The notes under the pieces are model-generated. The model was given only the letters and a program-made list of their open reading frames with translations, ran no database searches and was not told where the DNA came from. This document shows positions 1 through 1,760 of a DNA stretch of 1,760 nucleotides, one piece after another. The translations under genes and the position numbers were made by a program. The stretch's first letter is position 1; every line of letters begins with the position of its first letter. Origin of the DNA: Naegleria gruberi (taxonomy: Eukaryota); assembly GCA_000004985.1 (NCBI GenBank), contig GG739330.1. The stretch is one strand, 5' to 3'.

Positions 1-7
1 TGAAATT

Positions 8-1276
8 ATGAAAATATTTTCCAAGCATTATCAAAGTGAAATTGAAAAACAAGGCACCAGTTCATTTGTGGGAAGTGAATCCAAAACTTTCGAAACTGAT
101 GGAAGAACGTATGAGGAAGATAATAGTGACCTAGATGAAGAATACTATTCAGATTATTCTTATGATATTCCTCCCCATCAAAATGTTGTTGTGGAACAAT
201 GGAATACTAAAATTTACGATAATCTTGGAGTCACTGACTTTAGTGACGATGAATACGAGGAGGGATTAGATTTCAAGCAATTAGGCCACATTTTTAAAAA
301 CTTGGAAAATGAAGCAAATAATCCCCTCAAAAGAAAGAGATTTGATCCATTGACATTCGAAGATTATTCACAAAATTTCATTGAAAATAGATTGAAAAAT
401 ACGATTGCATCTTTTGAATCCAATACATGGGATTACGACCTCAAGCAGGAGTTTGAAGGAGAGTTGACAGAAAATATTCCAGCCATTAAAATTCTTGCAA
501 GAGAAGGTGTTAAAAAGAGAAAATTGGAAAATCAGTCAACTGAGCCATCTGAAAATGATTTGGCAGACAACGACATTTTAACAACCAGATATGATTCATG
601 TATTATGGAAAAGAAGCCTGTGAACCGAACAATAGATGAAGCTTCAAGTGATTACTTTCTTTATGATTCATTTCAATTGCCAAATGCCAAAATGTTACTT
701 CAACAAGCTGCTGAGAATTTCTCTTCACAACTTTTCAAATATTCTAATTCTTACGCTCAACTTTGCCGTGGAACGTGTGCAACAGAAGAGGGTGATTTAA
801 TTAGAACACGAAGTGTTTTATTTTCAACTTTATTATTTAGACATGAATTACAATGGATTAATTTGAATTTCAGAGCACAATTCGAATCTATTTTGCAAGA
901 ATATGTTGATACAACTCGATTACAGAACGAGGTCTTGGAATCAATTAATAGATTTGAGTATATTGAAACAAATGAAGATGAGGATGATGAATTTATTGAT
1001 AACATTTCTTCATGCTCATCTGACAGTATGGTTTCGAATGCTTGCCAACTTAAAATGATTCTGAAATCAAATGAGGAAACAATTTTCGCCGATAATACCT
1101 GCATCTCTTGCAAGACCCTTGCCGATTACAAAGAAATGAATCCTGAATTGATTTGCACAACTGGAGATGGTTTTCCAACCATTATAGAATCACACCAATC
1201 TTACGATTATGAAATTAAATTCACAGAGAGCAGAGAAGAAGCAATTCATTGGATGAATGGCAAGTTATTCAATTAA
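8..1276 (+). CDS. Hypothetical acidic, probably nuclear protein (422 aa). Has two basic NLS-like motifs, Asp/Glu/Tyr-rich tracts and a C-terminal Cys/His cluster. Family not recognised.
   Basis: Uninterrupted 1269-nt ORF in AT-rich DNA, where random frames close within about 60 nt. Yeast-like codon bias (AGA Arg, TTA/TTG Leu, GAA Glu). ATG at 8 has A at -3 (gaaATTatg). The frame stays open over the two codons upstream to the window edge, so the true start could lie further 5'. Stop TAA at 1274-1276. No in-frame CTG codons. Confidence 0.8.
   Translation: MKIFSKHYQSEIEKQGTSSFVGSESKTFETDGRTYEEDNSDLDEEYYSDYSYDIPPHQNVVVEQWNTKIYDNLGVTDFSDDEYEEGLDFKQLGHIFKNLENEANNPLKRKRFDPLTFEDYSQNFIENRLKNTIASFESNTWDYDLKQEFEGELTENIPAIKILAREGVKKRKLENQSTEPSENDLADNDILTTRYDSCIMEKKPVNRTIDEASSDYFLYDSFQLPNAKMLLQQAAENFSSQLFKYSNSYAQLCRGTCATEEGDLIRTRSVLFSTLLFRHELQWINLNFRAQFESILQEYVDTTRLQNEVLESINRFEYIETNEDEDDEFIDNISSCSSDSMVSNACQLKMILKSNEETIFADNTCISCKTLADYKEMNPELICTTGDGFPTIIESHQSYDYEIKFTESREEAIHWMNGKLFN
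329..340 (+). other. Basic cluster PLKRKRF, a monopartite NLS-like motif (aa 108-111)
   Basis: Codons aaa aga aag aga read in frame, preceded by Pro-Leu. Matches the K-K/R-x-K/R consensus. Confidence 0.5.
512..523 (+). other. Second basic cluster GVKKRKLEN, NLS-like (aa 169-172)
   Basis: Codons aaa aag aga aaa in frame. Together with the first motif this suggests nuclear targeting. Confidence 0.5.
971..991 (+). other. Acidic tract NEDEDDEF (aa 322-328)
   Basis: Run of gaa/gat/gag codons. The opposite strand reads as poly-Ser, which generates the spurious antisense ORF. Confidence 0.8.
1100..1195 (+). other. Cys/His cluster C365-x2-C368-x14-C383-x12-H396, possible small zinc-binding module
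   Basis: tgc at 1100-1102, 1109-1111 and 1154-1156, cac at 1193-1195, all in frame. Further Cys at aa 336/346 and His at aa 414. The spacing is compatible with a zinc ribbon or treble clef but matches no specific family. Confidence 0.3.
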
Positions 1277-1284
1277 GGACTTTA

Positions 1285-1760
1285 TTAATCTGCAAATCCA
1301 GAACCTCCATGGCTTGAGGAGCCACCTCCACCACCACCACCTCCTCCTCCAAAATCATTCGAAGTGGTATAATTGGTATCATTGAAAGAGGAATAATTAC
1401 CACCACTCCCATCACCACCATTTCCTCCACCACCTCCACCTTTTCTATTCCTCAAAACACAAAATAATATCAGACCTGTAAGGAGGAAAGTTCCACCAAT
1501 TACACTAAGGATAATGGCTGCATTGATGGCACTTTGGTCAATTAGGCATTTATCGTATTGGTTGGAATTGGTACGAAAGGTTACGGATGGGGTGTATTGA
1601 GAAATGAGATTTGATTTCTGATAGAAAATGGAATATTGTTGATTGGAATTGAGTGTGAGAATTCCATTGCTGTCAGGAGTTGGAGGATTTGAGAAATCAA
1701 TAGTGGAATCAAAGATGAATGTGGAATTTAGATTTAAAATCTTGTAATTATCCTTGTACT
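1285..1760 (-). CDS. 3'-terminal part of a type I single-pass membrane protein. Ser/Thr/Asn-rich ectodomain, one TM helix, RNRK, Gly-rich cytoplasmic tail. Partial: the N-terminus lies beyond 1760.
   Basis: Hand translation of the minus strand, codons phased with + positions 1288-1290, 1291-1293 and so on. There are 158 consecutive sense codons from 1758 down to 1288 with no stop, in AT-rich DNA. It ends with tandem stops TAA-TAA (+ strand tta at 1285-1287 and 1282-1284). Translation N->C: ...YKDNYKILNLNSTFIFDSTIDFSNPPTPDSNGILTLNSNQQYSIFYQKSNLISQYTPSVTFRTNSNQYDKCLIDQSAINAAIILSVIGGTFLLTGLILFCVLRNRKGGGGGGNGGDGSGGNYSSFNDTNYTTSNDFGGGGGGGGGGSSSHGGSGFAD*. No in-window Met, which explains its absence from the ORF track. 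Confidence 0.75.
   Translation of the reverse strand, partial: YKDNYKILNLNSTFIFDSTIDFSNPPTPDSNGILTLNSNQQYSIFYQKSNLISQYTPSVTFRTNSNQYDKCLIDQSAINAAIILSVIGGTFLLTGLILFCVLRNRKGGGGGGNGGDGSGGNYSSFNDTNYTTSNDFGGGGGGGGGGSSSHGGSGFAD
1321..1350 (-). repeat. Perfect trinucleotide microsatellite (CCN)10 on +, (GGN)10 on -, encoding Gly10 in the cytoplasmic tail
   Basis: + strand reads gcc acc tcc acc acc acc acc tcc tcc tcc. In the minus-gene frame every triplet is a Gly codon (GGC GGT GGA ...). Confidence 0.9.
1402..1440 (-). repeat. Second, imperfect Gly-codon tract (GGGGGGNGGDGSG) in the same tail
   Basis: + strand reads acc acc act ccc atc acc acc att tcc tcc acc acc tcc acc. It is C-rich low-complexity in the same frame as the Gly10 run. 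Confidence 0.8.
1453..1530 (-). other. Transmembrane helix-coding segment (AINAAIILSVIGGTFLLTGLILFCVL) of the minus-strand gene
   Basis: Twenty-six consecutive hydrophobic or small residues. Positive-inside RNRK follows immediately on the C-terminal side (1441-1452). The preceding domain is polar Ser/Thr/Asn-rich, consistent with type I topology. Small-xxx-small spacing (AxxxA, AxxxS, SxxxG) occurs within the helix. Confidence 0.7.

What the first reader, a model, noticed from the sequence alone, without database searches (positions are those of the whole stretch)
1285..1760. Unlisted minus-strand gene fragment for a cell-surface-type membrane protein with a poly-Gly tail
The supplied ORF track misses it because no start codon lies in the window. 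Yet 158 codons are open in the minus frame (the partial codon at 1759-1760 is excluded). The product has a clear domain logic. A Ser/Thr/Asn-rich segment is the presumed O-mannosylated stalk, with one N-x-T sequon (NST). It is followed by a 26-residue TM helix, RNRK, and a roughly 50-residue tail made of Gly6 and Gly10 runs flanking an N/S/T/Y-rich stretch. This layout matches fungal wall-stress and osmosensor mucin-like proteins of the Mid2, Wsc and Opy2/Msb2 type. The very short, glycine-dominated tail is unusual for those families. It could be a flexible linker ending in a short C-terminal docking peptide (SSSHGGSGFAD).
Basis: partly seen in the sequence, partly recalled or inferred. Interest (0 to 1): 0.55.

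Follow-up and report, generated by a model that had tools for sequence, protein, structure and literature searches.

The report
Naegleria membrane protein gene, 3′ half
The open frame is real: it is the second half of an already annotated but unstudied gene of the amoeba Naegleria gruberi. The gene encodes a single-pass membrane protein with a folded outer domain, probably related to the bacterial DUF2207 family, and a conserved glycine-rich tail, so it is not a fungal-type mucin sensor.

Summary
Minus-strand bases 1285-1758 hold 157 sense codons plus TAA, open to the contig end (chance about 2e-4). They encode a β-rich segment, a 26-residue TM helix, RNRK, and a 51-residue tail with Gly6 and Gly10 runs.

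The window is an entire 1,760-bp scaffold of Naegleria gruberi. The fragment is 100% identical to residues 148-304 of XP_002671505.1 (NAEGRDRAFT_73530, 304 aa), a "predicted protein" on a 290-kb scaffold that supplies the Met and a signal peptide. So the gene is complete and already annotated elsewhere.

The family is tiny: one N. gruberi paralogue and two environmental sequences. All keep the Gly tracts and a C-terminal S-x-H-G-x-S-G-F-A-[DN] motif.

By sequence the nearest family is bacterial DUF2207. Pfam hits are sub-threshold but in register, HHalign scores 28.6 against at most 18.1 in controls, and BLASTP to a Clostridium member gives 35.8 bits. DUF2207 proteins also end in Gly-rich tails.

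The fungal Mid2/Wsc/Msb2 reading is not supported. Function is unknown. Interest is modest.

The parts
1285..1758 (-). 3′ part of the coding sequence (codons 148-304 plus stop) of the N. gruberi gene annotated elsewhere as NAEGRDRAFT_73530 / XP_002671505.1. Bases 1759-1760 are a partial codon at the scaffold end.
   Evidence: translation. (100% identity to P0003 residues 148-304).
1531..1758 (-). C-terminal half of the luminal/extracellular β-sandwich ectodomain (P0003 residues 148-223; five predicted β-strands).
   Evidence: strands E154-163, 169-175, 180-183, 189-198, 205-210; pLDDT 80-90. (Ost1/M1-N-domain-like fold).
1720..1728 (-). N-S-T glycosylation sequon (P0003 N158). All four family members have a sequon at this Asn or at the invariant Asn two residues before it.
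   Evidence: NLNST / NLTST / NISTT / NINTT.
1546..1548 (-). Conserved juxtamembrane cysteine (P0003 C218). The second conserved Cys, C45, lies outside the window.
   Evidence: invariant columns.
1453..1530 (-). Single transmembrane helix AINAAIILSVIGGTFLLTGLILFCVL.
   Evidence: Kyte-Doolittle 2.42. (helix 222-250 in the model).
1441..1452 (-). Basic stop-transfer cluster RNRK (positive-inside, so the tail is cytosolic).
   Evidence: P0004 has KGK at the same place.
1288..1440 (-). Disordered cytosolic tail of 51 residues, 47% Gly. It holds Gly6 (1423-1440), an N/S/T/Y/F-rich middle, and Gly10 (1321-1350).
   Evidence: (pLDDT below 35). (both Gly tracts conserved in P0004 and P0005). (only a weak imperfect CCA x6.7 repeat).
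1288..1320 (-). Conserved C-terminal peptide SSSHGGSGFAD (family motif S-x-H-G-x-S-G-F-A-[DN]).
   Evidence: S295, H297, G298, S300, G301, F302, A303 invariant.
1285..1287 (-). TAA stop codon, 8 nt from the stop of the convergent plus-strand gene.
2..1276 (+). Convergent neighbour gene (P0001, 'predicted protein'). It is not part of the finding and is itself truncated by the scaffold start.

Best explanation
Bases 1285-1758 (minus strand) are the 3′ half of a real, intron-free stretch of a Naegleria gruberi protein-coding gene. The window is a small redundant or allelic scaffold. The complete gene is annotated on a 290-kb scaffold as XP_002671505.1 (304 aa, 'predicted protein').

The protein is a type I single-pass membrane glycoprotein with these parts:
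- A cleavable signal peptide (…SSTA|KSY…).
- One β-sandwich ectodomain of about 185 residues.
- A conserved juxtamembrane Cys, one TM helix and a basic stop-transfer cluster.
- A disordered Gly-rich cytosolic tail ending in the conserved peptide S-x-H-G-x-S-G-F-A-[DN].

The ectodomain is most probably a very divergent homologue of the N-terminal extracytoplasmic domain of bacterial DUF2207 proteins. Its predicted fold is the one seen in each luminal domain of OST subunit Ost1/ribophorin I and in the N-domain of M1 aminopeptidases. The layout (ectodomain, TM, Gly-rich tail with a terminal aromatic residue) mirrors DUF2207, but in a minimal form without the DUF2207 middle and C-terminal multi-TM part.

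Inferred mechanism, not shown: the β-sandwich binds an extended ligand such as a peptide or glycopeptide chain on the luminal or extracellular side, as proposed for Ost1 and as the M1 N-domain does. The flexible Gly tail acts as a spacer that presents the conserved C-terminal peptide to a cytosolic partner.

Status of each step:
- Shown: gene identity, architecture, family conservation and fold class of the model.
- Inferred: signal-peptide cleavage, topology, glycosylation, DUF2207 homology (about 0.65) and ligand/partner binding (about 0.3).
For: Identity:
- the window's plus-strand ORF is an N. gruberi protein whose longest contig is 1760 bp.
- the fragment is 100% identical to P0003 (XP_002671505.1) residues 148-304, on the same 290,827-bp scaffold as the neighbour's twin, P0002.

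Real coding sequence:
- chance of the open frame is about 2e-4.
- a paralogue at 44% identity and environmental homologues conserve the ectodomain, TM helix, Gly tracts and C-terminal motif.

Architecture:
-: helix 2-19, fifteen β-strands over residues 28-210 at pLDDT about 75-90, helix 222-250, and a tail with pLDDT below 35.

Fold:
- Foldseek top five hits are all ribophorin I/Ost1 (7.8e-8 to 1.1e-6).

DUF2207 link:
- PF09972 is the top Pfam hit for P0004, P0007 and the L001 ORF, in the same register (E 0.05-0.07).
- HHalign of the family ectodomains against 10 verified DUF2207 ectodomains, with signal peptide, TM and tails removed, scores 28.6 (P 0.0013). Column-shuffled controls give 10.7±1.9 (max 18.1, 0 of 200 reach 28.6) and the reversed profile gives 13.3. 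The relaxed alignment is collinear over 1-194 / 4-216.
- BLASTP of P0003 against Clostridium DUF2207 gives 35.8 bits, 34% identity over 64 residues, starting at both mature N-termini. The best reversed control is 20.0 bits.
- DUF2207 proteins have an extracellular N-terminus, TM segments and Gly/Ser-rich C-termini ending …GGGGGGGGAF or …GGGW (PMC10457818 and its supplement).

Ost1 function:
- Ost1 has two similar β luminal domains and binds glycosylated peptides (PMC7226087).
Against: - No family member reaches Pfam's gathering score for PF09972 (13.8-14.2 bits against 24.4), and P0003 itself gives no hit.
- HHalign probability is only 18.5%. The confident part of the alignment is limited to about 50-60 N-terminal residues.
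- The Clostridium sequence was first noticed by eye. The 4x10 matrix corrects for this only in part.
- No solved DUF2207 structure exists by sequence and the AFDB libraries were unavailable. So it is untested whether DUF2207_N has the Ost1-like fold.
- The structure models rest on a 4-sequence alignment. Only one of five models of P0003 was confident (66.6 against 45-50), and the P0004 model is weaker (60.3) and shares the same alignment, so it is not independent.
- β-sandwich matches at 6-14% identity do not prove homology.
- The N-terminal 147 residues are known only from the other scaffold copy.
- There are no expression, localisation or functional data, and no paper mentions the gene.
Confidence: 0.6

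Rival explanations
1. Fungal-type wall-stress or osmosensor mucin (Mid2/Wsc/Msb2/Opy2-like). In this reading an O-mannosylated, extended Ser/Thr-rich stalk acts as a mechanical probe, anchored by one TM helix with a short signalling tail.
For: The topology is the same (signal peptide, ectodomain, one TM, short cytosolic tail). The ectodomain is moderately rich in S/T/N (28 of 76 residues in the window-encoded part).
Against: - The source is Naegleria gruberi (Heterolobosea), not a fungus.
- The 'stalk' is modelled as ordered β-strands (pLDDT 80-90) that form part of a globular β-sandwich matching Ost1/M1-N folds.
- Ser+Thr is only 24% and is interleaved with hydrophobic and aromatic residues in β-strand patterns.
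- Pfam shows no WSC or other sensor-family domain.
- The exhaustive HMMER search found no fungal relatives.
Confidence: 0.03
2. A divergent, single-domain paralogue of OST subunit Ost1/ribophorin I. It would work in the ER next to the oligosaccharyltransferase or translocon, holding nascent glycopeptides.
For: Ost1/RPN1 is the top structural match for both modelled paralogues. The topology is the same: signal peptide, luminal β domain, one TM and a cytosolic tail. Ost1 binds glycosylated peptides (PMC7226087).
Against: - Pfam gives no Ribophorin_I match even at E up to 10.
- A family profile finds no PDB sequence, Ost1/RPN1 included, at E up to 10.
- There is one luminal domain instead of Ost1's two.
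- Sequence signals point to DUF2207 instead.
- OST subunits are conserved across eukaryotes, whereas this family was found only in N. gruberi and one unidentified environmental eukaryote.
Confidence: 0.1
3. A lineage-specific orphan surface or endomembrane protein with a generic β-sandwich. Its resemblance to DUF2207 (N-terminal motif and Gly-rich tail) would be convergent or due to chance.
For: All DUF2207 sequence signals are below curated thresholds (HHalign probability 18.5%). The family has only four detectable members. Low-complexity Gly tails can arise independently, as shown by a weak CCA microsatellite signal in the Gly10 tract. Bacterial TPM/Psb32-like proteins, an unrelated fold, also carry Gly-rich C-terminal extensions.
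Against: Several independent features coincide. Three members pick the same Pfam family as top hit in the same register. The profile score is far above shuffled and reversed controls. The match starts at the mature N-terminus of both protein sets. The order of modules is the same, down to a Gly tail with a near-terminal aromatic residue.
Confidence: 0.25
4. Not a functional gene here. The 1,760-bp scaffold could be an assembly artefact or a degenerate duplicate, and the open frame only a relic.
For: The scaffold is tiny and duplicates part of a 290-kb scaffold. The neighbour gene differs from its twin at 4 of about 162 residues, and the two gene models diverge at ...IPAIKIL.
Against: The fragment is 100% identical in protein to the annotated gene over 157 codons, with an intact frame and stop. 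So even as a haplotig or duplicate it carries the same intact coding sequence.
Confidence: 0.02

Closest known systems
Bacterial/archaeal DUF2207 membrane proteins (Pfam PF09972 N-terminal domain; e.g. Streptococcus mutans SMU.243)
   Same: - A signal peptide is followed at once by a β-rich extracytoplasmic domain. That domain opens with the motif [KD]-S/x-Y-x-[IV] … E-x-x-x-Y-x-F-x-G-x-[FY]-x-x-x-x-R.
- A membrane span follows the domain.
- The C-terminus is a cytoplasmic Gly/Ser-rich tail with an aromatic residue at or near the end.
- PF09972 is the top Pfam hit for 3 of 5 family members.
- The HHalign score is far above controls, and BLASTP to a Clostridium member gives 35.8 bits.
   Different: - Scores are below Pfam's gathering threshold.
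- It is eukaryotic.
- It is about 300 aa rather than about 550-650 aa.
- It has one TM helix rather than several, and the whole DUF2207 cytoplasmic-loop/C-terminal membrane part is absent.
- The tail ends …SGFA[DN] rather than …GGAF or …GGW.
- The function of DUF2207 is itself unknown. The S. mutans mutant shows acid and oxidative stress and biofilm defects (PMC10457818).
Ost1 / ribophorin I (subunit 1 of eukaryotic oligosaccharyltransferase)
   Different: Identity is only 9-14%. There is no Pfam Ribophorin_I hit and no PDB hit with the family profile. It has one domain instead of two. It has a Gly-rich tail. Its phyletic distribution is narrow rather than pan-eukaryotic.
N-terminal β-domain of M1 zinc aminopeptidases / leukotriene A4 hydrolase / tricorn factor F3
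   Different: It has no catalytic domain attached. It is membrane-anchored by a C-terminal TM helix. Identity is 5-10%.
Bacterial TPM-domain (DUF477/Psb32-like) proteins with a Gly-rich C-terminal extension
   Same: [quoted passage not shown]
   Different: The ectodomain fold is different (from general knowledge, TPM is α/β). No sequence similarity was detected.
Fungal Mid2 / Wsc1-4 / Msb2 / Opy2 sensors
   Same: Only the generic type I single-pass layout is shared.
   Different: The taxon is different. The ectodomain is a folded β-sandwich rather than a mucin-like stalk. There is no WSC domain. No sequence or fold similarity was found.

Membership tests
DUF2207 (Pfam PF09972 N-terminal domain) | Match to the PF09972 HMM at or above the gathering score (24.4 bits) | tested here: not met
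   P0004 scores 13.8 bits (E 0.07), P0007 14.1 bits (0.055) and the L001 ORF 14.2 bits (0.053). P0003 and P0005 give no hit. PF09972 is the top hit in the same register (profile positions about 15-18 onward), but below threshold.
DUF2207 (Pfam PF09972 N-terminal domain) | Profile-level similarity of the ectodomain to verified DUF2207 ectodomains, beyond controls | tested here: inconclusive
   HHalign scores 28.6 (P 0.0013) but with probability 18.5%. None of 200 column-shuffled controls reaches it (max 18.1), and the reversed profile scores 13.3. BLASTP of P0003 against Clostridium gives 35.8 bits, against 20.0 for the best reversed control. The confident signal is confined to about 50-64 N-terminal residues.
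DUF2207 (Pfam PF09972 N-terminal domain) | Domain located directly after an N-terminal signal peptide or anchor, on the extracytoplasmic side, followed by membrane span(s) | tested here: met
   (signal-like helix 2-19, β domain 28-210, TM 222-250). The bacterial layout is described in PMC10457818.
DUF2207 (full-length architecture) | Large middle/C-terminal part with further TM helices (about 550-650 aa in total) | tested here: not met
   P0003 is 304 aa and P0004 is 297 aa. Each has one TM helix and ends 47-54 residues after it.
DUF2207 (full-length architecture) | Gly/Ser-rich cytoplasmic C-terminal tail ending in an aromatic residue | tested here: met
   The Naegleria tail is 47% Gly and ends …GGGGGGGGGGSSSHGGSGFAD. 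Bacterial tails end …GGGFSGGGGGGGGGAF or …GGGGGGGW. In Naegleria the aromatic residue is third from the end, not last.
Ost1 / ribophorin I (Pfam PF04597) | Sequence match to the Ribophorin_I family | tested here: not met
   No PF04597 hit at E up to 10 for any member. The family profile finds no PDB chain at E up to 10.
Ost1 / ribophorin I (Pfam PF04597) | Two tandem luminal β-sandwich domains followed by one TM helix | tested here: not met
   There is one domain of about 185 residues. Ost1 has two similar luminal domains (PMC7226087).
Ost1 / ribophorin I (Pfam PF04597) | Fold of the luminal domain | tested here: met
Ost1 / ribophorin I (Pfam PF04597) | Stoichiometric subunit of the OST complex in the ER | not testable with these tools
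   This needs co-purification or localisation experiments.
Fungal Mid2/Wsc/Msb2/Opy2 sensors | Extended, disordered, heavily Ser/Thr-rich (O-mannosylated) extracellular region | tested here: not met
   The window-encoded ectodomain part is 24% Ser+Thr and is modelled as five β-strands at pLDDT 80-90.
Fungal Mid2/Wsc/Msb2/Opy2 sensors | Family domains (e.g. the Cys-rich WSC domain) or detectable homology; fungal origin | tested here: not met
   No Pfam hit. There are no fungal hits among 1.84 billion representatives. The organism is Naegleria gruberi.
Syndecan / DUF4534 (weak Pfam hits to the fragment) | Pfam match above the gathering score | tested here: not met
   Syndecan scores 12.4 bits (cut-off 25.2) and DUF4534 15.7 bits (cut-off 29.2). 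Both matches run across the TM segment: 72-106 for Syndecan and 32-106 for DUF4534.

The most novel reading that the evidence does not exclude
The Naegleria family would be a minimal eukaryotic offshoot of bacterial DUF2207, possibly acquired by horizontal transfer. DUF2207_N, the Ost1/ribophorin I luminal domains and the M1-peptidase N-domain would be one ancient superfamily of membrane-proximal modules that bind peptides or glycopeptides. The Gly-rich tail with a terminal aromatic peptide, kept from bacteria to an amoeba, would then be a conserved functional device, for example a flexible tether that docks a cytosolic partner or drives self-assembly, rather than filler.
Probability: 0.15. 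Interest if true: 0.55.

Novelty: new variant of a known kind. Interest (0 to 1): 0.3.

Why it matters
As a gene call it changes little. The gene is already in GenBank as a hypothetical protein, and the window only holds a redundant copy of its 3′ half.

Two things have modest value. First, the fungal-sensor reading is corrected. Second, an orphan Naegleria protein family gets a testable placement:
- an Ost1-like β-sandwich ectodomain;
- a probable link to the widespread but functionally unknown bacterial DUF2207 family;
- a Gly-rich tail with a conserved end motif shared in style across domains of life.

A 300-aa single-pass version could be a simpler system for finding out what the DUF2207 ectodomain and Gly tail do.

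Tried and rejected
- Exact look-ups of P0001, P0002, P0003 and the window ORF to fetch flanking DNA all failed. I therefore could not align the window with the 290-kb scaffold at DNA level or read beyond base 1760.
- The word-index homology search with the fragment found nothing, although a 100% identical protein exists. The low-complexity query probably swamped the word candidates. The exhaustive HMMER search recovered the protein.
- The metagenome scan and the prokaryotic genome scan with family patterns found no relatives.
- The afdb50 and afdb_sample fold libraries were unavailable. A direct structural comparison with DUF2207 models was therefore impossible.
- No PDB chain belongs to DUF2207_N by sequence.
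- NCBIfam gave only noise.
- The weak Pfam hits of the fragment (DUF4534, Syndecan) cover the TM helix and were discarded.
- P0006, a repetitive 813-aa protein at E 5.6e-4, was judged spurious because it matches around the TM region in 11 repeats.
- There is no synteny between the window and the environmental contig L001. Its convergent neighbour is unrelated to P0001.
- Rfam, tRNA and tandem-repeat scans of the window found no RNA gene and only a weak CCA x6.7 repeat in the Gly10 tract.
- No paper mentions the gene identifiers.
- A GPI anchor was considered and rejected. The hydrophobic segment is followed by 55 hydrophilic residues rather than lying at the C-terminus.
Full report
**1. The observation**

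Reading the minus strand from base 1758 gives 157 sense codons followed by TAA at 1285-1287. The frame is open to the end of the sequence. It is the longest open stretch on that strand.

Only 0.02% of 5000 shuffles of 1277-1760 reach that length in any frame. The composition-based expectation is about 3e-5. GC3 is as low as in the neighbouring annotated gene. The ORF lister omits the frame because it runs off the end, and shows only a 56-aa TTG-started piece.

- a 76-residue N-terminal segment with one N-S-T sequon;
- a 26-residue hydrophobic helix (Kyte-Doolittle 2.42);
- RNRK;
- a 51-residue tail that is 47% Gly, with Gly6 and Gly10 flanking NYSSFNDTNYTTSNDF and ending SSSHGGSGFAD.

**2. Where it comes from**

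The plus-strand ORF is 100% identical to a 422-aa 'predicted protein' of Naegleria gruberi whose longest contig is 1760 bp. So the window is a whole small scaffold. A near-identical copy of that neighbour's first ~165 residues forms the C-terminus of a 625-aa protein on a 290,827-bp scaffold.

An exhaustive HMMER search of 1.84 billion representatives found a 304-aa protein whose residues 148-304 are 100% identical to the fragment. It is XP_002671505.1 / EFC38761.1 / NAEGRDRAFT_73530 / D2VWW7, on the same 290-kb scaffold. The window is therefore a redundant piece, either a haplotig or a duplicate, of an annotated locus. The 'missing' N-terminus is known: Met1, a hydrophobic signal-like segment, and …SSTA|KSY….

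An earlier word-index search had missed this protein. That was a tool limitation with low-complexity queries. I could not fetch the big scaffold's DNA.

**3. The family**

Only four proteins are detectable:
- P0003 itself.
- An N. gruberi paralogue, P0004 (XP_002676885.1, 297 aa, 44% identity).
- Two environmental sequences on eukaryote-like contigs of about 39% GC: P0005 on L001-L003 and P0007 on L004. L003 and L004 come from the same JGI metagenome sample, 3300002220.

The full-length members, P0003 and P0004, share the following features, and each partial environmental sequence shows those that fall within its length:
- a signal peptide and a mature N-terminus KSY…;
- an ectodomain of about 190 residues with invariant positions (YL.P.TP, N..T..FD, two Cys);
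- an N-glycosylation sequon at or two residues after an invariant Asn;
- one TM helix;
- a Gly run just after the membrane and a second Gly run;
- the terminal motif S-x-H-G-x-S-G-F-A-[DN].

The Gly tracts are therefore a selected protein feature. At DNA level the Gly10 tract is only a weak, imperfect CCA x6.7 repeat with mixed GGA/GGT/GGC codons.

**4. The ectodomain is folded**

AlphaFold2 on the 4-sequence alignment gives a β-sandwich of fifteen strands over residues 28-210 (pLDDT about 75-90). It is followed by a TM helix at 222-250 and a disordered tail. The window-encoded 'stalk' supplies the last five strands, at pLDDT 80-90.

Caveat: only one of the five models was confident. The paralogue's model is weaker (mean pLDDT 60.3) and uses the same alignment.

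Fold searches agree for both models.
- Foldseek's top five hits are all ribophorin I/Ost1 chains (7.8e-8 to 1.1e-6).

Ost1 has two such luminal β domains and is reported to bind glycosylated peptides (PMC7226087).

There is no sequence-level link to Ost1. No Pfam Ribophorin_I hit appears, and the family profile finds no PDB hit.

**5. The sequence link to DUF2207**

Three members have the DUF2207 N-terminal domain (PF09972) as their top Pfam hit, in the same register. All are below threshold (E 0.05-0.07, about 14 bits against a cut-off of 24.4).

To test this lead I took ten bacterial DUF2207 sequences from the supplement of PMC10457818. I removed signal peptides, TM helices and tails, and confirmed that all ten hit PF09972 (best E 1.3e-36).

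- HHalign of the Naegleria-family ectodomains against them scores 28.6 (P 0.0013, probability 18.5%) over the first 48 columns.
- Two hundred column-shuffled controls give 10.7±1.9 (max 18.1). The reversed profile gives 13.3. With relaxed settings the alignment is collinear across both domains.
- BLASTP of P0003 against the Clostridium protein gives 35.8 bits, 34% identity over 64 residues, starting at both mature N-termini.
- In the full 4x10 matrix the real hits cluster in that register. The best reversed control is 20.0 bits.

The bacterial proteins are described as having a large extracellular N-terminus, TM segments and a C-terminus rich in Gly and Ser. Their aligned C-termini read …GGGFSGGGGGGGGGAF or …GGGGGGGW, much like …GGGGGGGGGGSSSHGGSGFAD.

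I rate homology to DUF2207_N at about 0.65. The Naegleria proteins lack the long multi-TM middle and C-terminal part, so they are at most a minimal variant. Whether DUF2207_N itself has the Ost1-like fold could not be tested.

**6. Mechanism**

- Shown: a type I layout, a folded β-sandwich, a conserved glycosylation site, conserved Gly tracts and a conserved C-terminal peptide.
- Inferred from the positive-inside rule (RNRK; KGK in the paralogue): the tail is cytosolic.
- Inferred by analogy with Ost1 and M1 N-domains: the ectodomain binds an extended peptide or glycopeptide ligand. The disordered Gly tail would be a spacer that presents the conserved terminal peptide to a cytosolic partner.

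The function of DUF2207 itself is unknown. The S. mutans mutant is sensitive to acid and peroxide and defective in biofilm formation (PMC10457818). Bacterial TPM/Psb32-like proteins also carry Gly-rich C-terminal extensions, so the layout recurs without a known role.

**7.

The general claim is right: a cell-surface-type single-pass membrane protein with a poly-Gly tail and a C-terminal docking peptide. The specific one is not: fungal Mid2/Wsc/Msb2/Opy2-type mucin sensors with an O-mannosylated stalk. The taxon is wrong, the 'stalk' is folded, and neither domains nor homology support it.

**8. Verdict**

This is a real gene fragment, already annotated elsewhere as a hypothetical protein. It is best described as a minimal, eukaryotic, DUF2207-like or Ost1-fold type I membrane protein. 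Interest is modest (0.3).

The most novel reading still open is a cross-domain superfamily linking DUF2207, Ost1 and M1 N-domains, with a conserved functional Gly tail. It has perhaps 15% probability.

Noticed in passing
window 2-1276 (+): The annotated 422-aa neighbour (P0001, Met at base 8) is a truncated gene model. The frame is open from base 2, and the 'EI' before the Met matches the 625-aa P0002 (…EDEIMKIFSKHYQ…) on the large scaffold. The real gene is therefore probably about 880 aa. No Pfam domain was found.
   Followed up: partly
window ~499-520 (+): The two copies of the neighbour gene diverge at …IPAIKIL: AREGVKKRK in the window against QEKV-stop in P0002. This suggests a 1-nt indel or a mis-called intron in one assembly copy. 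The copies also differ at 4 of about 162 residues, whereas the minus-strand gene is 0 of 157 different.
   Followed up: no
window 1274-1287: The stop codons of the two convergent genes are only 8 nt apart (TAA at 1274-1276 on plus, TAA at 1285-1287 on minus). Their 3′ UTRs must overlap.
   Followed up: no
L001 3235-3420: The environmental homologue on L001 has in-frame stops directly upstream of 'VTSIESHTYL…'. No signal-peptide exon is visible in the ~130 bp separating it from the upstream gene. Its paralogue P0007 on L004 has an intact signal peptide. The explanation could be an intron, a mis-assembly or a pseudogene.
   Followed up: partly
L001 4356-5969 (-): The convergent neighbour of the environmental homologue is a 537-aa protein made of about 30-residue repeats (…ND[KR]E[FV]VL.AV..NG.AL.YAS.EL…). 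It is unrelated to the window's neighbour, so synteny is not conserved.
   Followed up: partly
tool behaviour: The word-index protein search returned no hit for the fragment, although a 100% identical protein is in that collection. The exhaustive HMMER search found it. Low-complexity (poly-Gly) queries seem to swamp the word candidates.
   Followed up: yes
window 1322-1341 and 1365-1384: There are weak tandem repeats: CCA x6.7 inside the Gly10 tract, and a 9-nt unit TGGTATAAT x2.2. The 9-nt unit encodes the duplicated 'N-Y-[ST]' pattern (NYSS…NYTT) in the middle of the tail.
   Followed up: no
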